Assembly: GCF_001677475.2 (NCBI RefSeq) | Contig: NZ_CP015229.1 | From: Escherichia coli | GTDB taxonomy: Bacteria; Pseudomonadota; Gammaproteobacteria; Enterobacterales; Enterobacteriaceae | Direction: 5' to 3' (one strand) | Length of the DNA stretch: 64,000 nucleotides | Shown: piece after piece, positions 3,133-55,893 of the stretch | How the letters are laid out: each line of letters opens with the position of its first letter | Numbering within the stretch: position 1 is the first letter of the stretch | Program-made: the position numbers and the translations under genes | The notes under the pieces: generated by a model | What the model was told of the DNA's origin: nothing | Seen by the model: the letters and a program-made list of their open reading frames with translations, nothing else | Database searches by the model: none

Positions 3133-3207
3133 ATGACGTTGTCTCCTTATTTGCAAGAGGTGGCGAAGCGCCGCACTTTTGCCATTATTTCTCACCCCAA
3201 TAATTAA
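3133..3207 (+). pseudogene. prfC: Displaced 5' end of prfC (first ~21 codons) left at attL, running into phage DNA to a stop
   Basis: ATG at 3133 encodes [22 protein letters not shown] then diverges (NN*) after the att core; the full prfC is at 54307. Confidence 0.8.
3184..3197. other. attL core (ATTATTTCTCACCC), left prophage junction
   Basis: Identical 14-bp sequence recurs at 54355..54368 inside the intact prfC 5' end; flanking ~20 bp match with one mismatch. Confidence 0.75.
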
Positions 3208-22683: not shown

Positions 22684-23045
22684 ATTAATATTAAATCGGA
22701 TTATTTTTAGCGCTGAATGTGAAATTTAAATAAAAAGGACTCTTCCATGAGTCAAAATCCTTGAAATCTTAAGGGTAAGATAAAAGGTCATTAGACAGAA
22801 TGACACGTTTTATTAATAAATAAAGCTATTGTTTCATTCGTGTGTTTTTCTTTACAAAAGTAATCCTTGCTATGGTTGGTTAATCATGCGTTAATGGTGT
22901 TCTGGTTTGTTACAAAATTATCTGAAGCAGTCATTGTTATAATTTTATTATTTGTACCTCTTGAGATTTCCTTGTTGGTTTTTCTCTCTGATATTTTTTT
23001 CGGACCATTCTGCCCAAGGGCTAACTTCTTCAAAAGGTAATAATG

Positions 23046-23258
23046 ATGTCTAACAAAATGACTGGTTTAGTGAAATGGTTTAACCCTGAAAAAGGTTTTG
23101 GTTTCATCACGCCGAAAGATGGTAGCAAAGATGTGTTTGTCCATTTCTCAGCTATTCAGAGCAACGATTTCAAAACGTTAACTGAGAATCAGGAAGTCGA
23201 ATTTGGTATTGAGAACGGACCTAAAGGCCCCGCGGCTGTTCATGTTGTGGCACTTTGA
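23046..23258 (+). CDS. cspI: Cold-shock protein CspI
   Basis: [70 protein letters not shown] matches recalled CspI. Confidence 0.9.
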
Positions 23259-23461
23259 GGTAGAAAATATTACAAACCATATTCACTTTAGATGCCCGTG
23301 TTGCCATGGTTCTCAGTATAGAACATCATCTTTTGATGTTTCTGACAGGAATCCTTTCGGGGCAAAATGTATCTTTTGTAAATCAATGATGATTACATTT
23401 GATAATATTTCACAATACTTAAATGTTAGCCGTCTGTCGTTAGATTTAAGAAAGTGAAAAT

Positions 23462-23486
23462 GAAGGCTCCTTCGGGAGCTTTTTTG
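23462..23486 (+). terminator. Rho-independent terminator after cspI
   Basis: GGCTCC-TTCG-GGAGC followed by TTTTTTG. Confidence 0.7.
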
Positions 23487-23490
23487 CTTA

Positions 23491-23760
23491 GTGTCTAGTC
23501 GATGGATACTCACATATTACGGTAACATTATGAAAAAAATAATAGTTTTTTTTAACTCTGAACCAGCAATGGTAGTGCCAGTGATGACCGGAGTTAACAC
23601 CATCATGCGTGAATATCCAAATGGCGAAACAACACACCTCACTGTAATGGCTGCAGGGTTTCCATCTCTGACCGGAGATCATAAAGTCATTTATGTAGCA
23701 GCGGATCGACATGTAACTTCAGAAGAAATTCTGGAAGCAGCAATGAGACTCTTGAATTGA
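23491..23760 (+). CDS. Hypothetical small protein
   Basis: 89-codon ORF; start uncertain; no recognised motif. Confidence 0.3.
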   Translation: MSSRWILTYYGNIMKKIIVFFNSEPAMVVPVMTGVNTIMREYPNGETTHLTVMAAGFPSLTGDHKVIYVAADRHVTSEEILEAAMRLLN

Positions 23761-23932
23761 TTTGATTCTAATGCATTGATAATAAATGATAATCATCTTT
23801 ATCTGTTTGTGTGAAATTTAGACCGTCGTATGTTGATTATTGCGATGTTTCATCTTATCTTTTATACGTTTGCTCCATATAATTGACACTACTGTGTACC
23901 AGGAAAGTCATAACAGACTAAAAGAGGAAATG

Positions 23933-24106
23933 ATGAACATTGAAGAGTTAAAAACAAAAACAGAAGCAGATATTTCTGAATATATAACAAAAAAAATCAT
24001 TGAGCTTAAGAAAAAGACCGGGAAAGAAGTTACCAGTATCCAGTTTACTGCACGGGAAAAAATGACTGGTCTTGAAAGCTATGATATCAAGATTGATTTA
24101 ATCTAG
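23933..24106 (+). CDS. gnsB: GnsA/GnsB-family small protein
   Basis: MNIEELKTKTEADISEYITKKIIELKKKTGKEVTSIQFTAREKMTGLESYDIKIDLI resembles GnsB; SD AGAGGA upstream. Confidence 0.75.
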   Translation: MNIEELKTKTEADISEYITKKIIELKKKTGKEVTSIQFTAREKMTGLESYDIKIDLI

Positions 24107-24401
24107 TCTGTTTATAGTATTAGCATCAATTTCTTGTCAGATGCTATTCAACAATACAATTTACCCATAAACCTCGTTTTTACGGGGTTTTGTTATATTT
24201 AAACATTACCGAATAGATATAAATCTCGATAGTCGGTGGTATTGGTTGTGTGACAATACCTAGTCTTTTCGGTATGCCTGGAGAGAATACAAACGACAGA
24301 TTATGTAAGGGAAACGCGCTGAAACTTTCACACTTTCATGCTGAGTGATTTGACGTTATATTTTTAGCCGCAAGTGAAGAGCAAACGCATGGAGCGACAA
24401 A

Positions 24402-24608
24402 ATGCATAAAGATCAATACACTGATGACTCATCCCTGGATCAGGTCCGTGTAAAAACTATGCTCACTAGCACCATTTCTATGAGTTATCCGGATGTTGTA
24501 ATTGCATGTATAGAACATCAAGTGTCTCTGGAAGCATTCAGGGCAATTGAGGCAGCGTTGGTGAAGCACGATAAGAATTCGAAGGATTATTCCCTGGTGG
24601 TTGACTGA
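24402..24608 (+). CDS. Hypothetical small protein
   Basis: 68-aa ORF, no recognised motif. Confidence 0.3.
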
Positions 24609-24858
24609 TCACCATAACTGCTAACCATTCAAACTATTTCACCTGTGACAGAGTCAATATCGCATTCTGTCACTGTCAGGCTAATACAGAACTACAATTC
24701 AACTACTGCAATGCCTCGTAATTAGGTGAATTTACAATATCGTCCTGTTCGGATGCCAACTGCATTTCTGAGGATAAGGCGTTTATGACTCACATATTTG
24801 TCCCACACGCTCGCCAGTCCTGTGCGGGGTGGGAGGGGAGGTAAAGAAACCGGGATGT

Positions 24859-25053
24859 TCATCCATCATCACTTTGGATTGATGTATATGCTCTCTTTTC
24901 TGACGTTAGTCTCCGACGGCAGGCTTCAATGACCCAGGCTGAGAAATTCCCAGACCCTTTTTGCTCAAGAGCGATGTTAATTTGTTCAATCATTTGGTTA
25001 GGAAAGCGGATGTTGCGGGTTGTTGTTCTGCAGGTTCTGTTCTTCGTTGACAT
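24859..25053 (-). CDS. Small DNA-binding protein (DUF3950-like) upstream of cos
   Basis: 64-aa ORF MSTKNRTCRTTTRNIRFPNQMIEQINIALEQKGSGNFSAWVIEACRRRL, ribbon-helix-helix-like pattern. Confidence 0.5.
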   Translation of the reverse strand: MSTKNRTCRTTTRNIRFPNQMIEQINIALEQKGSGNFSAWVIEACRRRLTSEKRAYTSIQSDDG

Positions 25054-25239
25054 GAGGTTGCCCCGTATTCAGTGTCGCTGATTTGTATTGTCTGAAGTTG
25101 TTTTTACGTTAAGTTGATGCAGATCAATTAATACGATACCTGCGTCATAATTGATTATTTGACGTGGTTTGATGGCGTAGATGCACGTTGTGACATGTAG
25201 ATGATAATTATTATCATTTTGCGGGTCCTTTCCGGCGAT

Positions 25240-25330
25240 CCGACAGGTTACGGGGCGGCGACCTCGCGGTTTTTCGCTATTTATGAGATTTTTTGAGGGG
25301 GTGGTTGTTGTTTAATTGTTTGGTATATCT
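25240..25330. other. cos site; cosN cohesive end GGGCGGCGACCT at about 25253..25264
   Basis: Sequence ACAGGTTACG|GGGCGGCGACCT|CGCGGTTTTTCGCTATTTATGA matches the lambda cos junction from memory. Confidence 0.8.
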
Positions 25331-25480
25331 AATTGATAAGTAAGGTGAAAATAAAATAAATACAACAACCTTACGATGTGCTTTGATGTCATTAATGTGA
25401 AAAAATTAAATGATATCAAATGGTTTTGTAAAAACACATGGTTGTTGTATCGCTTTTTATCGATGACTTATGGAGAGGAG

Positions 25481-25987
25481 ATGGCCTTTTTATTGAATAA
25501 AAGTGATATGGCCTCCTCCATCGGTATCTCTGTTCAGGCATTTGATAAATGGGGCGTTCCTCCTGTCGAGCGTCGGGGGAGGGAAGTTTTTTATGACGTT
25601 AAAACTGTACTGGAGATAGATCGCGAGCGGCGACAACACAATCATAGAACACCTGATGACGGGGGCGATCTGGAGGAAAGGCTGCTTCGGGCCAGAGCTG
25701 AACTGACAGAAGAACAGGCCGTAGCTCAAAAACTTAAAAATCAGGTAACCGAAGGTAAGCTCATCGATTCAGACTTCTGCGTTTTCGCCCTCAGCAAGCT
25801 GGCGATGGCATTGTCCAGTACGCTTGATTCTATTCCGTTATCCATGCAGCGACAGTTCCCGGATTTAACGCCACGTCATCTTGACCATCTGAAAACCCTT
25901 ATTGCGAAGGGCGCAAATCAGTGTGCGCGGGCAGGGGATAAATTACCGGATTTGCTGGATGAATATATCAGAGCAACAACTGAATAA
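25481..25987 (+). CDS. nu1: Terminase small subunit Nu1
   Basis: Lambda Nu1-like; start at ATG with SD GGAGAGGAG in the track frame. Confidence 0.85.
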   Translation: MAFLLNKSDMASSIGISVQAFDKWGVPPVERRGREVFYDVKTVLEIDRERRQHNHRTPDDGGDLEERLLRARAELTEEQAVAQKLKNQVTEGKLIDSDFCVFALSKLAMALSSTLDSIPLSMQRQFPDLTPRHLDHLKTLIAKGANQCARAGDKLPDLLDEYIRATTE

Positions 25988-27887
25988 TCTGATGGCTGCC
26001 GTTTCGGTTGCGCTGCAGCCTCTGGTCAGGGTTGTACCGATGACGGCAGTTGAATGGGCTGACCAGTATTATTATCTGCCGAAAGAATCCTCATACGGTG
26101 ACGGCGAATGGAAAACGCTGCCGTTCCAGATCGCCATCATGAACAGTATGGGGAATGATCAGATCCGCACTGTTAATCTGATTAAATCTGCCCGTGTTGG
26201 CTATACAAAGATGTTGCTGGGGGTGGTCGGGTATTTTATTGAGCATAAATCCCGAAACAGTCTGCTTTTTCAGCCCACGGATTCTGCCGCTGAAGATTTT
26301 ATGAAGTCTCACGTGGAGACGACGATTAGGGACGTGCCATGCCTGAAAGACCTTTCCCCATGGCTGGGTCGTAAACATCGTGATAATACCCTCACGCTGA
26401 AACGCTTTTCATCGGGCGTCGGTTTCTGGTGCCTGGGCGGCGCTGCCGCCAAAAACTACCGTGAAAAATCCGTGGATGTGGTCTGCTATGACGAACTTTC
26501 CTCGTTCGAACCGGATGTTGAAAAAGAGGGTTCGCCAACCCTGCTGGGGGATAAACGTATTGAGGGCTCTGTATGGCCAAAATCCATTCGCGGCTCGACG
26601 CCTAAAATCAAAGGCTCCTGCCAGATCGAAAAAGCCGCTAACGAGTCGGCACATTTCATGCGTTTTTATGTGCCCTGTCCGCACTGTGGGGGGGAGCAGT
26701 ATCTGAAATTTGGCGATGATGCCTCGCCTTTCGGTCTTAAGTGGGAGAAGAATAAGCCAGAAAGTGTTTTCTACCTTTGTGAGCATCATGGCTGTGTGAT
26801 CCATCAGTCTGAGCTTGACCAGAGTAACGGGCGGTGGATCTGTGAAAACACGGGCATGTGGACCCGTGACGGCCTGATGTTTTTCAGCGCCCGGGGTGAT
26901 GAAATTCCGCCGCCGCGCTCCATCACTTTCCATATCTGGACGGCGTACAGTCCGTTCACCACCTGGGTACAGATTGTCTATGACTGGCTGGATGCACTGA
27001 AAGATCCCAACGGCCTGAAAACCTTTGTGAACACCACGCTGGGCGAGACCTACGAAGAGGCCGTGGGCGAAAAACTCGATCACCAGGTACTGATGGATAA
27101 GGTTGTGCGTTACACGGCGGCGGTGCCTGCCCGGGTGGTTTATCTGACGGCCGGCATTGACTCGCAGCGAAACCGTTTTGAGATGTATGTCTGGGGATGG
27201 GCTCCGGGAGAGGAAGCCTTTCTGGTGGATAAAATCATCATTATGGGGCGTCCCGATGAGGAAGAGACGCTGTTACGTGTGGATGCGGCGATCAACAAAA
27301 AATACCGCCATGCAGACGGAACCGAAATGACCATTTCCCGTGTCTGCTGGGACATCGGGGGGATCGATGGCGAAATCGTTTATCAGAGGTCAAAAAAACA
27401 CGGTGTTTTCCGGGTGCTGCCGGTAAAAGGCGCATCTGTCTATGGCAAGCCGGTGATCACCATGCCAAAAACCCGCAATCAGCGGGGCGTGTATCTGTGT
27501 GAAGTGGGGACGGACACCGCAAAAGAAATTCTCTATGCCCGTATGAGAGCCGATCCCACGCCTGCGGATGAAGCCACGTCGTATGCCATCCGTTTTCCTG
27601 ATGATCCGGAGATTTTTTCGCAGACAGAGGCGCAGCAACTGGTGGCGGAAGAGCTTGTGGAGAAGTGGGAAAAAGGAAAGATGCGTCTGCTGTGGGATAA
27701 CAAAAAGCGGCGTAACGAAGCGCTGGACTGCCTGGTGTATGCCTACGCGGCATTACGTGTGTCCGTGCAACGTTGGCAGCTTGATCTGGCTGTACTGGCA
27801 AAATCCCGGGAAGAAGAGACGACCCGGCCAACCCTTAAAGAACTGGCAGCGAAGCTGTCCGGAGGAGTGAATGGTTACAGTCGCTGA
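25959..27887 (+). CDS. A: Terminase large subunit A
   Basis: MNISEQQLNNL... with strong recalled similarity to lambda gpA (Walker A and endonuclease regions). Confidence 0.92.
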   Translation: MNISEQQLNNLMAAVSVALQPLVRVVPMTAVEWADQYYYLPKESSYGDGEWKTLPFQIAIMNSMGNDQIRTVNLIKSARVGYTKMLLGVVGYFIEHKSRNSLLFQPTDSAAEDFMKSHVETTIRDVPCLKDLSPWLGRKHRDNTLTLKRFSSGVGFWCLGGAAAKNYREKSVDVVCYDELSSFEPDVEKEGSPTLLGDKRIEGSVWPKSIRGSTPKIKGSCQIEKAANESAHFMRFYVPCPHCGGEQYLKFGDDASPFGLKWEKNKPESVFYLCEHHGCVIHQSELDQSNGRWICENTGMWTRDGLMFFSARGDEIPPPRSITFHIWTAYSPFTTWVQIVYDWLDALKDPNGLKTFVNTTLGETYEEAVGEKLDHQVLMDKVVRYTAAVPARVVYLTAGIDSQRNRFEMYVWGWAPGEEAFLVDKIIIMGRPDEEETLLRVDAAINKKYRHADGTEMTISRVCWDIGGIDGEIVYQRSKKHGVFRVLPVKGASVYGKPVITMPKTRNQRGVYLCEVGTDTAKEILYARMRADPTPADEATSYAIRFPDDPEIFSQTEAQQLVAEELVEKWEKGKMRLLWDNKKRRNEALDCLVYAYAALRVSVQRWQLDLAVLAKSREEETTRPTLKELAAKLSGGVNGYSR

Positions 27888-40943: not shown

Positions 40944-42370
40944 ATGGGTAAAGGAAGCAGTAAGGGGCATACCCCGCGCGAAGCGAAGGACAACCTGAAG
41001 TCCACGCAGTTGCTGAGTGTGATCGATGCCATCAGCGAAGGGCCGGTTGAAGGTCCGGTGGATGGATTAAAAAGCGTGCTGCTGAACAGTACGCCGGTGC
41101 TGGACACTGAGGGGAATACCAACATCTCCGGTATCACGGTGGTGTTCCGTGCCGGTGAGCAGGAGCAGACACCGCCGGAGGGGTTTGAATCCTCCGGCTC
41201 CGAGACGGTGCTGGGTACGGAAGTGAAATATGACACGCCGATCACCCGCACCATTACGTCTGCAAACATCGACCGTCTGCGCTTTACCTTCGGTGTACAG
41301 GCACTGGTGGAAACCACCTCAAAGGGTGACAGGAATCCGTCGGAAGTCCGTCTGCTGGTTCAGATACAACGTAACGGTGGCTGGGTGACGGAAAAAGACA
41401 TCACCATTAAGGGCAAAACCACCTCGCAGTATCTGGCCTCGGTGGTGGTGGATAACCTGCCGCCGCGCCCGTTTAATATCCGGATGCGCAGGATGACGCC
41501 GGACAGCACCACAGACCAGCTGCAGAACAAAACGCTCTGGTCGTCATACACCGAAATTATCGATGTGAAACAGGGCTACCCGAACACGGCACTGGTCGGC
41601 GTGCAGGTGGACTCGGAGCAGTTCGGCAGCCAGCAGGTGAGCCGTAATTATCATCTGCGCGGGCGTATTCTGCAGGTGCCGTCGAATTATAACCCGCAGA
41701 CGCGGCAATACAGCGGTATCTGGGACGGAACGTTTAAACCGGCATACAGCAACAACATGGCCTGGTGTCTGTGGGATATGCTGACCCATCCGCGCTACGG
41801 CATGGGGAAACGTCTTGGTGCGGCGGATGTGGACAAATGGGCGCTGTATGTCATCGGCCAGTACTGCGACCAGTCAGTACCGGACGGCTTTGGCGGCACG
41901 GAGCCGCGCATCACCTGTAATGCATACCTGACCACACAGCGCAAGGCGTGGGATGTGCTCAGTGATTTCTGCTCGGCGATGCGCTGTATGCCGGTATGGA
42001 ACGGGCAGACGCTGACGTTCGTGCAGGACCGACCATCAGATAAGGTGTGGACCTATAACCGCAGTAATGTGGTGATGCCGGATGATGGCGCGCCGTTCCG
42101 CTACAGCTTCAGCGCCCTGAAGGACCGCCATAATGCCGTTGAGGTGAACTGGATTGACCCGAACAACGGCTGGGAGACGGCGACAGAGCTTGTTGAAGAT
42201 ACGCAGGCCATTGCCCGTTACGGTCGTAATGTCACGAAGATGGATGCCTTTGGCTGTACCAGCCGGGGGCAGGCACACCGCGCCGGGCTGTGGCTGATTA
42301 AAACGGAACTGCTGGAGACGCAGACCGTGGATTTCAGCGTGGGTGCTGAAGGGCTTCGCCATGTACCGGG
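40944..42370 (+). pseudogene. J: Tail tip/host-specificity protein J, 5' fragment (~476 codons) truncated by IS insertion
   Basis: Lambda J-like N-terminus ending ...GLRHVPG at the IS junction; track ORF runs a few codons into the IS to a stop. Confidence 0.9.
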
Positions 42371-42463
42371 TATGAGACGACAATAACTCAGTCCGCCTGG
42401 CGCCGATTATTCTGGCCGGTTTTGTAACCTGAGTGTCATTTACATGATCCAACAGGAAATGGC

Positions 42464-43963
42464 GTGACGCTCAATACTTCTCAGGTCAGTTACTATATGA
42501 CTCAGCGTAAGAAAGGTATAACTCAGCATATCTCGGCCATGAAGGCTGGTATCTCAGTCCGTTCTGGTCGTCGGATCGAAAAAGGAGAGTGGGCAAAAAA
42601 CAGTGTTCGGCACTGGCGCACACGCAAAGATCCTCTGGAAGCTGTGTGGGACAGCATGCTTGTTCCTCTGTTGAAAGAGAGGCCGGCTCTGACACCAACA
42701 ACTCTACTGGAGATGCTACAGGATAAATATCCCGGCCAGTACCCCAACAGCCTTCGAAGAACAATGCAACGGCGGGTTCGCGAATGGAAACTACAGTATG
42801 GTACAGAGCAGGAGGTCATGTTCCGCCAGCAACATCAGCCCGGCCTGCGAGGCCTGTCGGACTTTACTGAACTGAAAGGTGTAGTTGTCACCATCGCCGG
42901 TAAGTTGTTGGCGCATAAGTTGTATCACTTCCGTCTGGAATGGAGCCACTGGAGCTGGATGCGGGTTGTTCTGGGTGGTGAGAGCTTCTCTGCTCTGGCT
43001 GAAGGCCTGCAGGAAGCCCTCGGACAACTGGGCGGAGTGCCGGTAGAACATAAAACGGACAGCCTGAGGGCAGCATGGAAACAACAGGGCGAAGATGGAC
43101 GCCGCGAGCTGACTGAGCGTTATGCTACTCTCTGTCAGCACTACGGAATGCAGGGCGTACACAATAATGCCGGTCGGGGCCACGAAAATGGCTCGGTTGA
43201 AAGTGCCCACGGACATCTGAAAAGGCGTATCTGTCAGGCGCTGATACTGCGGGGCAGTAACGACTTCAGCACCATAGAAGAATATCAGGCCTTCATCACT
43301 CAGCAGGTTATGCGGCACAACCGTAACAATCAGGATCTGGTCAAGGAAGAACGTCTTCATCTGAAACCGCTGCCGCTTCGTCGCAGTGCTGACTATGATG
43401 AGCTGACTGTGAGGGTTAGTCGCAGCAGTACCATCAATGTGAAGCACGTCGTCTACAGCGTACCTTCCCGGCTTGTAGGTCAACTGTTACGGGTCAGGTT
43501 ATGGGACGATCGTCTGAGCTGTTACGTTGGCAGCAGCGAGGTCATGAGCTGCCCTCGCGTCAGACCAGAAAAAGGGAAGACGCGGGCCCGTCGTATCGAC
43601 TTCCGACATGTGATCGACAGTCTGGCAAAAAAGCCCGGTGCGTTCTGCCATGCAACGCTGAGAAATGACATCCTGCCGGACGATGAATGGCGGAGGCTGT
43701 GGCGTCGCTTATGTAATCATCTGGAGCCCGATATGGCAGGAAGGCTGATGGTACATGCCCTGAAACTGGCTGCAGGATACGACGATATCTCAGTCGTGGC
43801 AAAAGGTATGGAGCAGATGCTGAATACCCCGGGAAACGTGGATCTGCACCGGCTGATGCGCTTCCTGGGTATAAAAGAAAAGGCGTTGCCGGTAGTCAAT
43901 GTGATACAGCATAACCTGAGCAGTTATGAGCAACTACTGCGTGGCAAGGGAGGTTCGCAGTGA
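42464..43963 (+). CDS. istA: IS21-family transposase IstA
   Basis: 499-aa ORF with N-terminal HTH and DDE-type core; followed by overlapping IstB. Confidence 0.8.
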   Translation: MTLNTSQVSYYMTQRKKGITQHISAMKAGISVRSGRRIEKGEWAKNSVRHWRTRKDPLEAVWDSMLVPLLKERPALTPTTLLEMLQDKYPGQYPNSLRRTMQRRVREWKLQYGTEQEVMFRQQHQPGLRGLSDFTELKGVVVTIAGKLLAHKLYHFRLEWSHWSWMRVVLGGESFSALAEGLQEALGQLGGVPVEHKTDSLRAAWKQQGEDGRRELTERYATLCQHYGMQGVHNNAGRGHENGSVESAHGHLKRRICQALILRGSNDFSTIEEYQAFITQQVMRHNRNNQDLVKEERLHLKPLPLRRSADYDELTVRVSRSSTINVKHVVYSVPSRLVGQLLRVRLWDDRLSCYVGSSEVMSCPRVRPEKGKTRARRIDFRHVIDSLAKKPGAFCHATLRNDILPDDEWRRLWRRLCNHLEPDMAGRLMVHALKLAAGYDDISVVAKGMEQMLNTPGNVDLHRLMRFLGIKEKALPVVNVIQHNLSSYEQLLRGKGGSQ

Positions 43964-44715
43964 GCAATATCCATCACCTTGAACATAGCCTGCGTAAACT
44001 ACGCCTGACACGAGTTGGAGCTGAATGGCACGCTCTGGAAAAACGAGCGCTGGCAGAAGGCTGGACACCATCGCGCTATCTTCTGACGCTATGCAATGAA
44101 GAACTCCTGTGGCGCGAGAGTGAAAAACTGCGTCGTTATAAAAAGGAGGCCCGGTTGCCAGTTGCCAAAACGCTGAGCGAATACGACTTCAGTCAGGTGC
44201 CGGAACTGAATGGAGCTCAGTTCCGGCAACTCTGTGAAACGACAGACTGGGTTGATGCAGGAGAAAACGTTCTGCTGTTCGGAGCCAGCGGGTTGGGGAA
44301 AAGCCATCTGGCGGCAGCGATCGTGGATGGCGTAGTAGGTCAGGGCTACCGGGCCCGGTTCTACAGCGCAGGAGAGCTGTTGCAGGAACTACGTAAAGCC
44401 AGAGCTCAGTTGAAACTGAATGAGCTGCTACTGAAACTGGATCGCTACCGGGTGATAGTGGTGGATGATCTTGGCTATGTCAAACGCGATAGTGCCGAAA
44501 CGGGTGTGCTGTTCGAGTTAATAGCGCATCGCTATGAACGTGGGAGCCTGGTGATAACCAGTAACCATCCGTTCAGCATGTGGGGCAGCATCTTCGTGGA
44601 TGAGACTATGGCGGTGGCTGCGGCAGACAGGCTGATCCATCACGGATATATGTTCGAACTGAAAGGGGAAAGCTACAGGAAAAAGACAGCGAAGGCAGTA
44701 ACAAGCGCGACTTGA
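43960..44715 (+). CDS. istB: IS21-family ATP-binding helper IstB
   Basis: Walker A (LLFGASGLGKSHLA), Walker B (VVDDLGYV) and C-terminal DRLIHHG motif. Confidence 0.88.
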   Translation: MSNIHHLEHSLRKLRLTRVGAEWHALEKRALAEGWTPSRYLLTLCNEELLWRESEKLRRYKKEARLPVAKTLSEYDFSQVPELNGAQFRQLCETTDWVDAGENVLLFGASGLGKSHLAAAIVDGVVGQGYRARFYSAGELLQELRKARAQLKLNELLLKLDRYRVIVVDDLGYVKRDSAETGVLFELIAHRYERGSLVITSNHPFSMWGSIFVDETMAVAAADRLIHHGYMFELKGESYRKKTAKAVTSAT

Positions 44716-44781
44716 TGTCGCCCTGAAGGGTGCGGCCAGTATAGTTGGCGCGAGTCGGCAAAACTAGTTGACGTCTAATAA

Positions 44782-46773
44782 CCGGGCGATGTCATTGAAA
44801 TCTGCGATGATGACTATGCCGGTATCAGCACCGGTGGTCGCGTGCTGGCGGTGAACAGCCAGACCCGGACGCTGACGCTCGACCGTGAAATCACGCTGCC
44901 ATCCTCCGGTACCACGCTGATAAGCCTGGTTGACGGAAGTGGTAATCCGGTCAGCGTGGAGGTTCAGTCCGTCACCGACGGACTTAAGGTGAAAGTGAAC
45001 CGGGTTCCTGACGGCGTTGCAGAATACAGCGTGTGGGGGCTGAAGCTGCCGACGCTGCGCCAGCGCCTGTTCCGCTGCGTGAGTATCCGTGAGAACGACG
45101 ACGGCACGTATGCCATCACTGCCGTGCAGCATGTACCGGAAAAAGAAGCCATCGTGGATAACGGGGCGCACTTTGACGGCGACCAGAGCGGCACGGTGAA
45201 TGGTGTCACGCCGCCAGCGGTGCAGCACCTGACCGCCGAAGTCACCGCAGACAGCGGGGAATATCAGGTGCTGGCGCGCTGGGACACGCCGAAGGTGGTG
45301 AAGGGCGTGAGCTTCCTGCTCCGTCTGACCGTAACAGCGGATGACGGCAGTGAGCGGCTGGTCAGCACGGCCCGGACGACGGAAACCACATACCGCTTCA
45401 CGCAACTGGCGCTGGGGAACTACAGGCTGACAGTCCGGGCGGTAAATGCGTGGGGGCAGCAGGGCGATCCGGCGTCGGTATCGTTCCGGATTGCCGCACC
45501 GGCAGCACCGTCGAGGATTGAGCTGACGCCGGGCTATTTTCAGATAACCGCCACGCCGCATCTTGCCGTTTATGACCCGACGGTACAGTTTGAGTTCTGG
45601 TTCTCGGAAAAGCGGATTACCGATATCAGGCAGGTTGAAACCACAGCCCGCTATCTTGGTACGGCGCTGTACTGGATAGCCGCCAGTATCAATATCAAAC
45701 CGGGCCATGATTATTACTTTTATATCCGCAGTGTGAACACCGTTGGCAAATCGGCATTCGTGGAGGGCGTCGGTCGGGCGAGCGATGATGCGGAAGGTTA
45801 CCTGGATTTTTTCAAAGGCAAGATAACCGAATCCCATCTCGGTAAAGAGCTGCTGGAAAAAGTTGATTTGACGGAGGATAACGCCAGCAGACTGGATGAG
45901 TTTTCGAAAGAGTGGAAGGACGCTAACGATAAATGGAATGCCATGTGGGGCGTCAAAATTGAGCAGACCAAAGACGGCAAACATTATGTCGCGGGTATTG
46001 GCCTCAGCATGGAGGACACGGAGGAAGGCAAGCTGAGCCAGTTTCTGGTTGCCGCTAACCGTATCGCGTTTATTGACCCGGCAAACGGGAATGAAACGCC
46101 GATGTTTGTGGCGCAGGGCAACCAGATATTCATGAACGACGTGTTCCTGAAGCGCCTGACAGCCCCCACCATTACCAGCGGTGGCAGTCCTCCGGTATTT
46201 TCCCTGACATCAGACGGAAAGCTGACCGCTAAAAATGCGGATATCAGTGGTAGTGTGAATGCGAACTCAGGAACGCTCAACAATGTCACGATTAACCAGA
46301 ACTGTACGATTAAGGGCATGCTGGAGGCGACTCAGGTCAGAGGTGACTTCGTTAAAGCTGTATCCAAATCATTTCCGAAACAGGCTGGTACGTGGGGTAA
46401 CACGGAAACACCAAACGGGACGGTTACAGTCACCATCAGCGATGATCATAACTTTGACCGTCAAATCATTATTCCGCCCATTATCTTTAACGGAATAGCG
46501 TATAGCGATCCGGGAAGTGGTAATAACCCGGGAGGTACAAGATACACGGGTTATGGTTTTGAAGTTCGCAAAAACGGTGTATTAATCGCATCCAGAGAAA
46601 CTAAAGGGGCCATTCCCGGTAGCTACAGTGCGGTTATTGATATGCCGAGTGGCAGGGGAAGCGTCACTCTGGAGTTTAAGGTTTTCCATAAAGGCAATCA
46701 GTGGGCAGGTAATATCACCGACTGTACGGTGATTGTGACCAAAAAAGCCGCTTCCGGCATCAGTATTCGTTGA
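44782..46773 (+). pseudogene. J: Tail tip/host-specificity protein J, 3' fragment
   Basis: Resumes in frame ([29 protein letters not shown]...) exactly as lambda J continues after ...HVPG. Confidence 0.9.
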
Positions 46774-47506: not shown

Positions 47507-50446
47507 ATGGCAGTAAAGATTTCAGGTGTACTGAAAGACGGCACAGGAAAACCGGTACAGAACTGCACAATCCAGCTGAAAGCAAAACGTAACAGCACCA
47601 CGGTGGTGGTGAACACGCTGGCCTCAGAAAATCCGGATGAAGCCGGGCGTTATAGCATGGACGTTGAGTACGGTCAGTACAGCGTTATTCTGTTGGTGGA
47701 AGGATGCCCGCCGTCACATGCCGGGACCATCACCGTGTATGAAGATTCCCGACCCGGTACGCTGAATGATTTTCTCGGTGCCATGACGGAGGATGATGCC
47801 CGTCCGGAGGCTCTGCGCCGTTTTGAACTGATGGTGGAAGAGGTGGCGCGTAACGCGTCCGCGGTGGCACAGAACACGGCAGCCGCGAAGAAGTCAGCCG
47901 GCGATGCCGGCACATCTGCCCGTGAGGCGGCAACCCATGCGACTGATGCTGCAGATTCAGCACGTGCAGCCAGCACGTCAGCCGGACAGGCCGCGACGTC
48001 AGCTCAGGAGGCTTTTTCCTGCGCAGGAACGGCATCAGCAAAAGCCTCTGAGGCATCAAAAAGTGCTGCCGCTGCAGAGTCCTCAAAAAGCGCGGCGGCC
48101 ACCAGTGCCGGTGCCGCGAAAACGTCTGAAACGAATGCTGCAGCGTCACAACAATCAGCAGCCACTTCTGCATCCACCGCGACCACGAAAGCGTCAGAAG
48201 CTGCCACCTCAGCCCGGGATGCGTCGGCTTCAAAAGAGGCGGCAAAATCATCAGAAACGAGCGCAGCCTCGAGCGCAAGTAGTTCCGCTTCCTCGGCAAC
48301 AGCGGCAGCAAATTCTGCGAAGGCGGCAAAAACGTCCGAGACGAACGCCAGGTCTTCTGAAACGGCAGCGGAACAGAGCGCCTCAGCTGCGGCAGGTTCA
48401 GAAACTACCGCTGCATCATCAGCCCGTGAGGCGTCAGTCAAAGCGGAGGAGGCTGCAGCCAGTGCCACTGCCGCCGGAAAATCGGCAGAAAGCGCCGCAT
48501 CATCCGCTTCAACAGCCACAACGAAGGCTGGCGAAGCCACTGAACAGGCCAGCGCAGCAGCGAGGTCAGCTTCCGCAGCGAAGACATCCGAAACGAACGC
48601 GAAAGCGTCGGAAACCAGCGCAGAATCCTCAAAAACGGCTGCCGCATCGTCCGCCAGTTCGGCGGCGTCATCGGCCTCATCGGCGTCTGCTTCAAAAGAT
48701 GAGGCGACCAGACAAGCGTCAGCAGCGAAGGGCAGCGCCACGACGGCATCCACGAAGGCAACAGAGGCTGCTGGCAGTGCGACGGCGGCAGCACAGAGCA
48801 AAAGTACGGCGGAATCCGCGGCAACGCGCGCCGAGACAGCGGCAAAACGGGCAGAGGATATTGCATCCGCCGTGGCGCTTGAGGATGCGAGCACGACGAA
48901 AAAGGGGATAGTACAGCTCAGCAGTGCGACCAACAGCACTTCCGAGTCACAGGCGGCAACGCCAAAGGCAGTAAAAGCAGCCAATGACAATGCTGAGAAA
49001 CGTCTGCAGAAAGATCAGAACGGTGCGGATATCCCTGGCAAAGACACCTTTACGAAAAATATTGGTGCCTGCCGTGCCTTCGGTGGGTCAGTAAGCACAA
49101 CAACAGGAAACTGGACGACTGCACAGTTTATCGAGTGGCTGGATTCTCAGGGAGCATTTAACCATCCATACTGGATGTGCAAGGGTTCCTGGTCTTATGG
49201 CAATAATAAAATCATTACTGATACTGGCTGCGGTAATATTCATCTCGCCGGAGCTGTCATTGAAGTAATGGGGATAAAGTCAGCGATGACGATCCGCATT
49301 ACCACTCCGACTACATCCAGCGGTGGCGGAACAACCAACGCCCAGTTTACCTATATTAATCACGGAACAGATTATTCACCTGGCTGGCGAAGGGACTATA
49401 ACTCCAGAAATAAGCCAACGGCATCAGAGATCGGGGCGCTACCGTCAGGTGGAACAGCAGTATCATCAGTTAATCTGGCTTCAAAAGGTCGGGTAGCCGC
49501 GCTGACAGACAATACGCAGGGGGCAGCAGGTCTTGAGTTATACGAGGTGTATAACAACGGATATCCAACAGCGTATGGAAATATCATTCACCTGAAAGGG
49601 ATGACAGCCGTTGGCGAAGGTGAGTTACTCATCGGCTGGAGTGGTACAAGCGGTGCTCATGCTCCGGCATTTATTCGTTCACGACGGGATACGACCGACG
49701 CAAACTGGTCGCCGTGGGCGCAGCTTTACACCTCGGCTCATCCTCCTGCAGAGTTTTATCCAGTCGGTGCACCAATCCCGTGGCCATCAGATACCGTTCC
49801 GTCTGGCTATGCCCTGATGCAGGGGCAGACTTTTGACAAATCTGCATACCCGAAACTTGCAGCGGCTTATCCGTCAGGCGTTATTCCTGATATGCGTGGC
49901 TGGACGATTAAGGGCAAGCCCGCCAGTGGTCGTGCCGTATTGTCTCAGGAACAGGACGGCATTAAATCGCACACCCACAGCGCCAGCGCATCCAGTACGG
50001 ATTTGGGGACGAAAACCACATCGTCGTTTGATTACGGCACTAAATCCACGAATAACACCGGTGCGCATACCCATAGTTTAAGTGGCAGCACGAATGCGGC
50101 TGGTAATCACAGCCATAGAGATGGCCGTCGATTTAACCCCAGTGTTTTTAAAGATACTTATCAATATGGTTATACAAGCTCAGGTCAAAATACCTGGGGG
50201 GTACAAGGCTCAGTAGGTATGTCTACGGGGTGGTTAGCTAATACCAGTACAGATGGTAATCATAGCCACTCACTGTCCGGTACAGCAGTATCTGCAGGTG
50301 CACACGCGCATACTGTCGGTATTGGTGCTCATACGCACTCCGTTGCGATAGGGTCACATGGACACACCATCACCGTTAACGCTGCTGGTAACGCGGAAAA
50401 CACCGTCAAAAACATCGCATTTAACTATATTGTGAGGCTTGCATGA
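47507..50446 (+). CDS. stf: Side tail fibre protein Stf (Ala/Ser-rich repeats; C-terminal HxH repeats)
   Basis: 979-aa ORF; long low-complexity central region; C-terminus [18 protein letters not shown]...[15 protein letters not shown] typical of lambda-type Stf. Confidence 0.85.
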
Positions 50447-54306: not shown

Positions 54307-55893
54307 ATGACAAGCCTTTTGGCCGCAGAGGTAGCGAAAAGAAGAACCTTTGCAATTATTTCTCACCCGGACGCCGGTAAAACAACCATCACCGAGAAGG
54401 TGCTGCTGTTCGGACAGGCCATTCAGACCGCCGGTACAGTAAAAGGCCGTGGCTCTAACCAGCACGCTAAGTCGGACTGGATGGAGATGGAAAAGCAGCG
54501 TGGGATCTCCATTACCACGTCTGTGATGCAGTTTCCGTATCACGACTGCCTGGTTAACCTGCTCGACACCCCGGGGCACGAAGACTTCTCGGAAGATACC
54601 TATCGTACTCTGACGGCGGTGGACTGCTGCCTGATGGTTATCGACGCTGCAAAAGGTGTTGAAGATCGTACCCGCAAGCTGATGGAAGTTACCCGTCTGC
54701 GCGACACGCCGATCCTCACCTTTATGAACAAACTTGACCGTGATATCCGCGACCCGATGGAGCTGCTCGATGAAGTTGAGAACGAGCTGAAAATCGGCTG
54801 TGCACCGATCACCTGGCCGATTGGCTGCGGCAAGCTGTTTAAAGGCGTTTACCACCTTTATAAAGATGAAACCTATCTTTATCAGAGCGGTAAAGGCCAC
54901 ACCATTCAGGAAGTCCGCATTGTTAAAGGGCTGAATAACCCGGATCTCGATGCTGCGGTTGGTGAAGATCTGGCGCAGCAGCTGCGTGACGAACTGGAAC
55001 TGGTGAAAGGCGCGTCTAACGAGTTCGACAAAGAGCTGTTCCTTGCGGGCGAAATCACTCCGGTATTCTTCGGTACTGCGCTGGGTAACTTCGGCGTTGA
55101 TCATATGCTGGATGGCCTGGTGGAGTGGGCCCCTGCGCCGATGCCGCGTCAGACTGATACCCGTACCGTAGAGGCGAGCGAAGACAAATTTACCGGCTTC
55201 GTATTTAAAATTCAGGCCAACATGGACCCGAAACACCGCGACCGCGTGGCGTTTATGCGTGTGGTGTCCGGTAAATATGAAAAAGGCATGAAGCTGCGCC
55301 AGGTGCGTACTGCGAAAGATGTGGTGATCTCCGACGCGCTGACCTTTATGGCGGGTGACCGTTCGCACGTTGAAGAAGCGTATCCTGGCGATATCCTCGG
55401 CCTGCACAACCACGGCACCATTCAGATCGGCGACACCTTTACCCAGGGTGAGATGATGAAGTTCACCGGTATTCCGAACTTCGCGCCAGAACTGTTCCGT
55501 CGTATCCGCCTGAAAGATCCGCTGAAGCAAAAACAGCTGCTTAAAGGGCTGGTACAGCTTTCCGAAGAGGGCGCGGTGCAGGTGTTCCGTCCGATCTCCA
55601 ACAACGATCTGATCGTTGGTGCGGTTGGTGTGCTGCAGTTTGATGTGGTGGTAGCGCGTCTGAAGAGCGAATACAACGTTGAAGCAGTGTATGAGTCAGT
55701 CAACGTTGCCACTGCCCGCTGGGTAGAATGTGCGGACGCGAAGAAATTCGAAGAGTTCAAGCGTAAGAACGAAAGCCAACTGGCGCTTGATGGCGGCGAT
55801 AACCTCGCTTACATCGCTACCAGCATGGTCAATCTGCGCCTGGCGCAGGAACGTTATCCGGACGTTCAGTTCCACCAGACCCGCGAGCATTAA
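54307..55893 (+). CDS. prfC: Peptide chain release factor 3 (RF3), reconstituted with a phage-derived 5' end
   Basis: [27 protein letters not shown]... with GTPase motifs; first ~16 codons come from the prophage side of attR. Confidence 0.92.
54355..54368. other. attR core (ATTATTTCTCACCC) within prfC codons 17-21
   Basis: Exact copy of the 14-bp sequence at 3184..3197. Confidence 0.75.

What the first reader, a model, noticed from the sequence alone, without database searches (positions are those of the whole stretch)
25240..25330. Lambda-type cos site
The 12-nt cohesive end GGGCGGCGACCT and flanking sequence match lambda from memory, so the packaging specificity is likely lambda-like.
Basis: established knowledge. 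Interest (0 to 1): 0.2.

Follow-up and report, generated by a model that had tools for sequence, protein, structure and literature searches.

The report
Lambdoid prophage cos, N15-type cosB
This is the ordinary DNA-packaging (cos) site of a lambda-like prophage of E. coli: its cutting site is identical to lambda's, but the neighbouring recognition site and the protein that reads it are of the already described N15/"Monarch" type, so lambda's own enzyme probably would not start packaging here.

Summary
GGGCGGCGACCT occurs once, at 25253-25264. The cosQ heptamer (25223-25229), the 350 bp to its left (342/353) and 26 of the next 29 bp match lambda. Lambda similarity stops at about 25293.

From there to about 25690 lies a different module. 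Three GGTTGTTGT boxes sit at 25303 (+), 25362 (-) and 25440 (+), arranged like lambda's R3-I1-R2-R1, with an IHF-like box between the first two. Their sequence is that of phage N15's R3. No lambda-type R box is present.

The small terminase (25481-25987) has an N15-type DNA-binding domain: its recognition stretch is identical to N15 gp1, and the domain is 33% identical to lambda Nu1. Its C-terminal half and the large terminase are PhiR12-like (91% and 95%), and the large terminase is 66% identical to lambda gpA.

This fits the "Monarch group" of prophages described by Feiss et al. (2015). In that study, lambda-specific terminase packaged cosB-N15 DNA about 10^-4 as well as its own.

So the cohesive ends and termination signals are lambda-type, but initiation specificity is most likely N15-type. 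The feature is ordinary and already known. This copy also has an IS21-family element inside tail gene J.

The parts
25223..25229 (+). cosQ heptamer GGGTCCT (packaging-termination signal)
   Evidence: Identical to lambda bp 48473-48479 and at the same distance from the nick. Present in 6 of the 7 related E. coli loci examined. The exception is L014, where IS1 has destroyed the site.
25253..25264 (+). cosN cohesive-end sequence GGGCGGCGACCT. Inferred nicks fall between 25252/25253 on the + strand and 25264/25265 on the - strand.
   Evidence: Exact and unique match. It is 12/12 with lambda, and the flanks at -6 to +17 differ from lambda at one base. Nick positions are inferred from lambda, not measured.
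25265..25293 (+). I2 segment between cosN and cosB, lambda-like
   Evidence: 26/29 identical to lambda bp 13-41. Lambda similarity ends here. PMC4669245 states that I2 is needed, with cosQ and cosN, for termination.
25300..25315 (+). R3 box of cosB (core GGTTGTTGT at 25303-25311, bp 51-59), N15 type
   Evidence: GGTTGTTGTTTAA is shared with N15 bp 50-62, within and just beyond R3-N15. 12/16 positions are invariant among 7 related E. coli loci. The same box lies at bp 51-59 in Pseudomonas phages Hali and U6, which have the same TerS helix.
25326..25338 (-). IHF-like box (I1 equivalent), TATCAATTAGATA on the - strand
   Evidence: One mismatch to WATCAANNNNTTR. It lies at bp 74-86 on the - strand, the same place and strand as the best consensus matches in lambda (bp 74-91). 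The TTGATAA core is invariant in diverged relatives. Binding was not tested.
25359..25373 (-). R2 box (core at 25362-25370), inverted relative to R3
   Evidence: Exact inverted GGTTGTTGT. It is at bp 110-118, against lambda R2 at bp 109-120 and PhiR12 R2 at bp 110. 12/15 positions invariant in relatives.
25414..25426 (+). Second conserved IHF-like box (TATCAAATGGTTT) between R2 and R1
   Evidence: One mismatch to the IHF consensus. 10/15 positions invariant in relatives, against 10/39 in the spacer before it. Its role is unknown.
25437..25451 (+). R1 box (core at 25440-25448), same orientation as R3
   Evidence: Exact GGTTGTTGT. It is at bp 188-196, about 33 bp further from cosN than lambda R1 at bp 155. 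10/15 positions invariant in relatives.
25481..25987 (+). Small terminase subunit (TerS, 168 aa), a mosaic of an N15-type winged-HTH N-terminus and a PhiR12-type C-terminal half
   Evidence: Pfam Phage_Nu1, E = 1e-20. PGAP annotates the same ORF in strain 144. aa 1-48 are 79% identical to N15 gp1 and 33% to Nu1, and SVQAFDKWGV is identical to N15. aa 80-168 are 91% identical to PhiR12 TerS. The AF2 model has a strand-helix-helix-wing-helix N-terminus with pLDDT about 80-85.
25959..27887 (+). Large terminase subunit (TerL, 642 aa), with ATPase and the endonuclease that would nick cosN
   Evidence: Pfam GpA_ATPase (2e-54) and GpA_nuclease (1e-70). It is 95% identical to PhiR12 TerL, 66% to lambda gpA and 67% to N15 gp2.

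Best explanation
This is the cos site of a roughly 50 kb lambdoid prophage inserted at the 5' end of prfC. It is a three-part mosaic.

(1) The right-arm end, cosQ, cosN and I2 are essentially lambda's. The phage's gpA-family TerL would therefore make nicks staggered by 12 bases, leaving 5'-GGGCGGCGACCT ends, and would terminate packaging at cosQ-cosN-I2 as in lambda.

(2) cosB and the first ~70 codons of TerS form a different, exchangeable recognition module. Three N15-type R boxes (GGTTGTTGT) sit in the lambda layout R3(+) - IHF site - R2(-) - R1(+). They are read by a TerS winged-helix domain whose recognition helix is identical to that of N15. By analogy with lambda, an IHF-induced bend would bring R3 and R2 together for the TerS dimer. 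That anchors TerL over cosN and starts packaging rightwards into the terminase and head genes.

Initiation specificity is therefore predicted to be of the N15/Monarch type. Lambda- or 21-specific terminase should not start packaging here. This terminase might package lambda-type DNA, as N15-specific terminase does.

Shown here: the sequence identities, box positions, conservation and mosaic junctions. Inferred: nicking, TerS and IHF binding, and cross-packaging behaviour.
For: Lambda-like part:
- The 12-mer is exact and unique.
- cosQ, cosN, I2 and the left arm match lambda.
- Lambda-type matches stop at 25293, and similarity to other phages resumes only at about 25691.

N15-type recognition module:
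- Three GGTTGTTGT copies lie within 150 bp, against 0.56 expected in the whole window.
- R3 and R2 are at bp 51 and 110. This is the same place and orientation as lambda (53, 109-120) and PhiR12 (50, 110).
- No lambda-type or PhiR12-type boxes are present, and no rR2.
- The TerS DNA-binding stretch is identical to N15.

Exchangeable module:
- PhiR63 has the same left arm but lambda cosB/Nu1.
- PhiR12 has the same TerS C-terminal half and TerL but another cosB/DBD.

Selection on the boxes:
- Among 7 E. coli loci spanning 74-100% identity, the R and IHF-like boxes are 67-80% invariant. The two long spacers are 26-32% invariant.
- Pseudomonas phages Hali and U6 have TerS about 47% identical with the same helix, and unrelated genome ends. 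They carry GGTTGTTGT at bp 51-59 from the end.

Context and literature:
- Intact Nu1/gpA/gpW/portal genes follow.
- PMC4669245 describes exactly this combination for the Monarch group. [quoted passage not shown]
Against: - No experiment exists for this site.
- The Monarch sequence itself could not be obtained, so identity with that group rests on matching its published description.
- The R3 core starts 1 bp further from the nick than in N15 (bp 51 against 50). In the N15 register, only 5/12 of bp 48-59 match.
- The published cross-packaging data concern N15's simple cosB with a lambda TerL hybrid, not a complex cosB with a 66%-identical TerL.
- The IHF-like box has a mismatch in the TTR part, and such matches are frequent in AT-rich DNA: four with at most 1 mismatch occur in 228 bp.
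- The conservation analysis rests on only 7 sequences.
- Foldseek gave only weak winged-HTH hits, with E of 0.09 or higher.
- In this copy an IS21-family element splits gene J and raises the att-to-att length to about 51.2 kb. The cos may therefore not currently serve production of infectious particles.
Confidence: 0.8

Rival explanations
1. Fully lambda-specific cos. Lambda terminase would recognise, cut and package this DNA like lambda's own.
For: cosN, cosQ and I2 are identical or nearly identical to lambda. The cosB layout and the R3/R2 positions are as in lambda.
Against: No lambda-type R box is present in cosB. The TerS DNA-binding domain is 33% identical to Nu1 and has a different recognition helix. 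Lambda similarity ends at 25293. Lambda helpers package cosQ-lambda cosN-lambda cosB-N15 chromosomes at about 5e-4 (PMC4669245 Table 6).
Confidence: 0.04
2. A further specificity, distinct from both lambda and N15. The complex cosB, with R3 shifted by 1 bp, an extra-long R2-R1 spacer, a second IHF-like box and a PhiR12-type TerS/TerL backbone, would work only with its own terminase. N15-specific terminase would not use it efficiently, or the reverse.
For: - R3 register differs by 1 bp from N15.
- R1 is about 33 bp further out than in lambda.
- A second IHF-like box is conserved.
- There are 8 substitutions in TerS aa 1-45 relative to N15, outside the recognition stretch.
- TerL is only 66-67% identical to lambda gpA and N15 gp2.
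Against: The recognition stretch and the box core are identical to N15. In lambda, shifts of 1-2 bp in the cosN-R3 distance are tolerated (PMC4669245). The authors who described the Monarch group judged that it shares N15's specificity.
Confidence: 0.12
3. A fossil. The cos is a sequence relic in a defective prophage and no longer functions in packaging.
For: In this window an IS21-family element interrupts tail gene J. The att-to-att length is about 51.2 kb, about 105% of lambda. Related loci show decay: IS1 in cosB in strain N25, and cos without a TerS gene in NCTC86.
Against: TerS, TerL, gpW, portal and the downstream head and tail ORFs are full length. The J gene is uninterrupted in strain 144, which carries the cos/TerS segment 25100-25720 at 100% identity. 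The boxes are conserved against drifting spacers. The IS insertion looks recent and affects tails, not DNA packaging.
Confidence: 0.1
4. The cos of a phage-inducible chromosomal island (PICI) that hijacks a lambda-like helper.
For: PICIs carry lambda-like cosQ and cosN with an unrelated sequence at the R3 position (PMC9026076).
Against: In PICIs an rpp gene starts about 100 bp from cosN, and there are no I1/R2/R1 sites or terminase genes. Here a tripartite cosB is followed by TerS, TerL, gpW, portal, and head and tail genes within a complete prophage.
Confidence: 0.01

Closest known systems
Bacteriophage lambda cos (cosQ-cosN-I2-cosB: R3-I1-R2-R1; Nu1/A terminase)
   Same: Identical 12-nt cohesive end and cosQ, near-identical I2 and right-arm end. 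Same cosB layout, with R3 and R2 at the same positions and orientations and an IHF-like box at the same place. Nu1-family TerS starts about 200 bp from cosN (bp 229 against 191), followed by gpA-family TerL.
   Different: The R-box sequence is GGTTGTTGT, not CGTTTCC(T/G)TTCT. The TerS DNA-binding domain is 33% identical. R1 is about 33 bp further out. TerL is 66% identical.
Phage N15 cos (simple cosB: R3 only plus remote rR2)
   Same: The R-box core and its 3' flank (GGTTGTTGTTTAA). The TerS recognition stretch is identical, and the DNA-binding domain is 79% identical.
   Different: N15 has a single R3 at bp 48-59, no IHF site, no R2 or R1, and an rR2 inside gene 1. Its gene 1 starts at bp 89. 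Its cohesive end differs from lambda at 2 of 12 positions. Here the box starts 1 bp further from the nick, and cosN is lambda's.
"Monarch group" prophages (Feiss et al. 2015, PMC4669245)
   Same: [quoted passage not shown]
   Different: Direct sequence comparison was not possible because the Monarch sequence and the Virology 2015 paper were not available. Whether Monarch shares the lambda-like left arm or the PhiR12-like TerL is unknown.
Phage 21 versus lambda paradigm, and the PhiR63 / PhiR12 / PhiR5 phages from E. coli ECOR strains
   Same: The principle is the same: one common cosN/cosQ combined with alternative cosB + TerS-DBD modules. PhiR63 shares the window's left arm (99.5%). PhiR12 shares the TerS C-terminal half and TerL (91% and 95%).
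   Different: Those phages carry other R-box types: lambda-type in PhiR63, CATGTCCGG in PhiR12, and CATGTC(A/G)-type in PhiR5.

Membership tests
Lambda-like cos site (12-base 5' cohesive ends; cosQ-cosN-cosB) | 12-base cohesive-end sequence with strong identity to lambda's | tested here: met
   12/12, unique in the window
Lambda-like cos site (12-base 5' cohesive ends; cosQ-cosN-cosB) | Conserved 7-bp cosQ at the lambda distance upstream of the nick | tested here: met
   GGGTCCT at 25223-25229, which is lambda 48473-48479 in register
Lambda-like cos site (12-base 5' cohesive ends; cosQ-cosN-cosB) | cosB with R3 - IHF site - R2 (inverted) - R1 to the right of cosN | tested here: met
   Three exact 9-mers at bp 51 (+), 110 (-) and 188 (+), with an IHF-like box at bp 74-86. 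The boxes are conserved in relatives.
Lambda-like cos site (12-base 5' cohesive ends; cosQ-cosN-cosB) | Adjacent Nu1-family TerS and gpA-family TerL genes | tested here: met
   Pfam Phage_Nu1 1e-20; GpA_ATPase 2e-54; GpA_nuclease 1e-70
Lambda-like cos site (12-base 5' cohesive ends; cosQ-cosN-cosB) | Terminase actually nicks here to give 12-nt 5' overhangs | not testable with these tools
   Needs sequencing of virion DNA ends or an in vitro cos-cleavage assay
Lambda packaging-initiation specificity (cosB-lambda / gpNu1) | R boxes matching the lambda consensus CGTTTCC(T/G)TTCT | tested here: not met
   No match with up to 3 of 12 mismatches in 25265-25480. The same search finds R3, R2 and R1 in lambda.
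Lambda packaging-initiation specificity (cosB-lambda / gpNu1) | TerS recognition helix of gpNu1 type | tested here: not met
   SVQAFDKWGV against SIRTIQNWQE. The DNA-binding domain is 33% identical.
Lambda packaging-initiation specificity (cosB-lambda / gpNu1) | Packaged by lambda terminase | not testable with these tools
   Published proxy: lambda helper on cosB-N15 gives about 5e-4 (PMC4669245 Table 6)
N15 / Monarch packaging specificity | R3 matching R3-N15 (GAGGTTGTTGTT, bp 48-59) at about the same distance from cosN | tested here: met
   GGTTGTTGTTTAA is shared. It starts at bp 51 here and at bp 50 in N15, a 1-bp shift. The match is 11/12 after a 1-bp slide and 5/12 in strict register.
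N15 / Monarch packaging specificity | TerS recognition helix identical to TerS-N15 | tested here: met
   Residues 17-26, SVQAFDKWGV, are identical
N15 / Monarch packaging specificity | Monarch subgroup: tripartite cosB with an IHF site and no rR2 in the TerS gene | tested here: met
   Three boxes plus an IHF-like box. No further box with at most 1 mismatch in 25253-26000.
N15 / Monarch packaging specificity | Sequence identity to the Monarch prophage cos itself | not testable with these tools
   PMC4461450 is not held. The figure sequences are not in the text of PMC4669245.
N15 / Monarch packaging specificity | Winged helix-turn-helix, dimeric DNA-binding domain | tested here: inconclusive
   The AF2 model shows strand-helix-helix-wing-helix for aa 1-54, with pLDDT about 80-85. 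Foldseek finds only weak MerR/excisionase/RppA-type hits, E of 0.09 or higher. phmmer against the PDB finds no gpNu1. The dimer state was not tested.
PICI cos | rpp gene about 100 bp from cosN; no R2/R1/I1; no terminase genes | tested here: not met
   TerS starts at bp 229 and a full terminase and head-tail gene set follows

The most novel reading that the evidence does not exclude
The Monarch-type complex cosB could be a functionally distinct recognition system rather than N15 specificity with extra sites. It combines a lambda cosN/cosQ with a divergent TerL. Because N15-type TerS tolerates lambda cosB, prophages of this kind (about 5% of complete E. coli genomes) could package co-resident lambda-type prophage or island DNA one-way, while being immune to packaging by those elements. 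That would give a directional mobilisation network among lambdoid prophages.
Probability: 0.15. Interest if true: 0.35.

Novelty: already known. Interest (0 to 1): 0.12.

Why it matters
For annotation, the lesson is that a lambda-identical cohesive end does not tell which terminase will package a genome. The specificity module is cosB plus the first ~70 codons of TerS. It is swapped independently of cosN: at least four module types share this cosN among the E. coli phages seen here.

In practice, DNA carrying this cos should anneal with lambda ends. It is unlikely to be a good substrate for lambda packaging extracts.

Beyond that, the site is a routine feature of a common lambdoid prophage.

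Tried and rejected
- **Papers not held.** The paper that defines R3-N15 and Monarch (Virology 2015, PMC4461450) and the lambda/21 contacts paper (PMC5006951) could not be read. Identity with Monarch could therefore not be checked at the sequence level.
- **PhiR12 as phage 21-type.** I first recalled the PhiR12-type box (CATGTCCGG) as phage 21-like. No phage 21 record turned up in the collection. The PhiR5-type TerS and boxes look closer to the lambda/21 kind. I dropped the label.
- **Sequence search of the PDB.** phmmer of TerS against PDB sequences found no gpNu1.
- **Structure search.** Foldseek with the AF2 model gave no hit with E of 0.001 or lower.
- **PICI cos.** Considered and rejected on gene content.
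- **Fourth GGTTGTTGT at 25018.** It lies inside the DUF3950/YnfO gene and is also present in lambda, which uses a different R box. I treated it as chance.
- **Large scans.** Metagenome- and genome-scale scans were not run. The cost was not justified for an ordinary feature.

Full report
**Observation**

The window contains the exact lambda cohesive-end sequence GGGCGGCGACCT once, at 25253-25264 on the + strand. The relaxed search (up to 2 mismatches) is not above chance. The exact hit, however, sits in a long block of lambda homology. In lambda's register:
- the cohesive end is 12/12
- the cosQ heptamer GGGTCCT lies at 25223-25229 with lambda's spacing
- the 353 bp to the left are 342/353 identical
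- bp 13-41 (the I2 segment) are 26/29
- 25240-25293 is 51/54

Megablast hits to lambda, HK629/630, DE3 and similar phages all end at window position 25293. Similarity to any sequenced phage resumes only at about 25691 (three-way alignment).

**What lies in the gap**

Between 25294 and the start of the small terminase gene there are three exact copies of GGTTGTTGT, at 25303 (+), 25362 (-) and 25440 (+). A fourth lies outside cos. Only 0.56 copies are expected in the whole window.

[quoted passage not shown] Lambda's R3, R2 (inverted) and R1 lie at bp 53, 109-120 and 155. The best IHF-consensus match between the first two boxes is TATCAATTAGATA (one mismatch) at bp 74-86 on the - strand. This is the same place and strand as the best matches in lambda.

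The layout is therefore lambda's complex cosB, R3-I1-R2-R1, but the box sequence is different. A search for the lambda R consensus with up to 3 of 12 mismatches finds nothing here, while it finds all three boxes in lambda. The sequence instead equals the core of phage N15's R3: GGTTGTTGTTTAA is shared, starting at bp 50 in N15 and bp 51 here.

**The proteins**

| Gene | Window position | Evidence |
|---|---|---|
| TerS (168 aa) | 25481-25987 | Pfam Phage_Nu1, 1e-20; same ORF in RefSeq annotation of an identical prophage segment |
| TerL (642 aa) | 25959-27887 | GpA_ATPase + GpA_nuclease |
| gpW, lambda-family portal | following TerL | |

TerS is a mosaic:
- Residues 1-48 are 79% identical to N15 gp1 and 33% to lambda Nu1.
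- The stretch SVQAFDKWGV is identical to N15; lambda has SIRTIQNWQE.
- Residues 80-168 are 91% identical to the TerS of the PhiR12 phages and 43% to lambda.

TerL is 95% identical to PhiR12 TerL, 66% to lambda gpA and 67% to N15 gp2.

An AlphaFold model gives a strand-helix-helix-wing-helix N-terminus with pLDDT about 80-85. Foldseek returns only weak MerR/excisionase/RppA-type winged-HTH hits, so the fold test is only weakly supportive.

**An exchangeable module**

- PhiR63_1 shares the window's left arm (99.5%) through I2 and then continues with lambda-type cosB and Nu1.
- PhiR12 shares the TerS C-terminal half and TerL. It has its own DNA-binding domain and its own boxes (CATGTCCGG) at bp 50 (+), 110 (-) and 145 (+).
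- PhiR5 shows yet another box type behind the same cosN.

The cohesive end is thus common currency. cosB plus the TerS DNA-binding domain is swapped as a unit.

**Evidence that the boxes matter**

This cosB type occurs in 298 of 5426 complete E. coli genomes, at 100% down to about 74% identity. In an alignment of seven such loci, the R boxes and IHF-like boxes are 67-80% invariant. The two long spacers are 26-32% invariant.

There is also an independent check. Pseudomonas phages Hali and vB_Pae_U6 have a TerS only about 47% identical but with the same helix (GIS.QAFDKWGV). Their genome-end sequence (GGTAATTCGAAC...) is unrelated. They carry GGTTGTTGT at bp 51-59 from that end, and U6 has an inverted copy near bp 251, like N15's rR2. 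This assumes the Hali record starts at the physical end. Helix and box therefore travel together across large distances.

**Comparison with the literature**

Feiss et al. (PLoS One 2015, PMC4669245) define lambda-like phages by their 12-base ends. [quoted passage not shown]

They describe N15's simple cosB (R3 at bp 48-59, plus a remote rR2). They also describe a second group of prophages, "exemplified by Monarch". That group has TerS recognition helices identical to N15 and strong R-site identity, but a complex tripartite cosB with an IHF site and no rR2.

The window matches each of those points. There is no rR2 equivalent. I could not align it with Monarch itself because that paper is not held.

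Their Table 6 shows that lambda- and 21-specific helpers package a cosQ-lambda cosN-lambda cosB-N15 chromosome at 2-5 x 10^-4. The N15-specific helper packages lambda chromosomes at a useful level. [quoted passage not shown]

**Mechanism**

*Shown:* the sequence anatomy, the mosaic junctions, and the conservation.

*Inferred by analogy with lambda and N15:*
1. TerS dimers bind R3 and R2 across an IHF-induced bend.
2. This positions TerL to nick between 25252/25253 (+ strand) and 25264/25265 (- strand).
3. Packaging proceeds rightwards.
4. Termination uses cosQ-cosN-I2 and should be interchangeable with lambda.

Initiation should be N15/Monarch-specific.

*Caveats:*
- R3 is shifted by 1 bp relative to N15.
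- R1 is about 33 bp further out than in lambda.
- A second IHF-like box (25414-25426) is conserved but unexplained.
- No experiment exists on a complex N15-type cosB.

**State of this copy**

The window holds the whole prophage, collinear with that of E. coli strain 144, which lies between yjjG and prfC. A 14-bp repeat at 3184 and 54355 is the likely att core, giving 51.2 kb.

Relative to strain 144, the window has a 2.4 kb IS21-family element inside gene J. It has IstA-like and IstB ORFs and imperfect terminal inverted repeats at 42366-42418 and 44733-44785. This copy is therefore probably tail-defective and slightly oversize. The cos site and terminase genes are intact.

**Verdict**

This is an ordinary, already described kind of site.

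Noticed in passing
window 42366-44785: A roughly 2.4 kb IS21-family element interrupts the tail-tip gene J. It has a 499-aa IstA-like ORF at 42464-43963, a 251-aa IstB ORF at 43960-44715, and imperfect terminal inverted repeats. The J halves are at 40944-42386 and 44842-46773. The insertion is absent from the otherwise collinear prophage of E. coli strain 144.
   Followed up: partly
window 3184-3197 and 54355-54368: The 14-bp direct repeat ATTATTTCTCACCC is the likely att core. The prophage sits in the 5' end of prfC, with the integrase on the yjjG side and a DinI-like gene on the prfC side. The att-to-att length is 51,171 bp, or about 48.75 kb without the IS.
   Followed up: partly
L011 (E. 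coli OkiPb01701, NZ_AP042598.1, about 1562227): This locus has the same N15-type cosB and TerS, but a different sequence where cosN should be: ...GGGTCCTTTCCGGAACCTGAAACACCGGGGGTCGGTAGACGCGCAAAAACGCGCTATTTATGAG. It may be a variant cohesive end joined to the same cosB.
   Followed up: no
L014 (E. coli N25) and L013 (E. coli NCTC86): These are decayed copies of the same cos type. In N25, IS1 replaces cosQ, cosN and R3. In NCTC86, cosQ-cosN-cosB is present but no TerS gene follows.
   Followed up: no
window 25414-25426: A second IHF-like box, TATCAAATGGTTT, lies between R2 and R1. It is conserved in diverged relatives (10/15 invariant) while the preceding spacer is not (10/39). It has no counterpart that I know of in lambda's shorter R2-R1 interval.
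   Followed up: partly
L017 (Pseudomonas phage Hali, bp 1-260) and L018 (vB_Pae_U6): These Pseudomonas phages have an N15-type TerS helix. They carry GGTTGTTGT at bp 51-59 from an unrelated end sequence (GGTAATTCGAAC...) and an inverted copy near bp 251. This is the N15 'simple cosB + rR2' layout in another genus.
   Followed up: partly
window 25018-25026: A fourth GGTTGTTGT lies inside the YlcI/YnfO (DUF3950) gene at 24859-25053 (-). It is also present in lambda, so it is probably a coincidence of coding sequence.
   Followed up: partly
window about 23000-24700: A block of accessory genes lies just left of cos: cspI-like cold-shock gene, ymcF/ynfQ, ynfN, gnsB. It is shared with PhiR63_1 and strain 144.
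   Followed up: no
L001 and L003 (lambda A, N15 gene 2): My global alignment gives 87% identity between lambda gpA and N15 gp2. PMC4669245 states 64.9% identity for the two TerLs. The discrepancy is unexplained.
   Followed up: no
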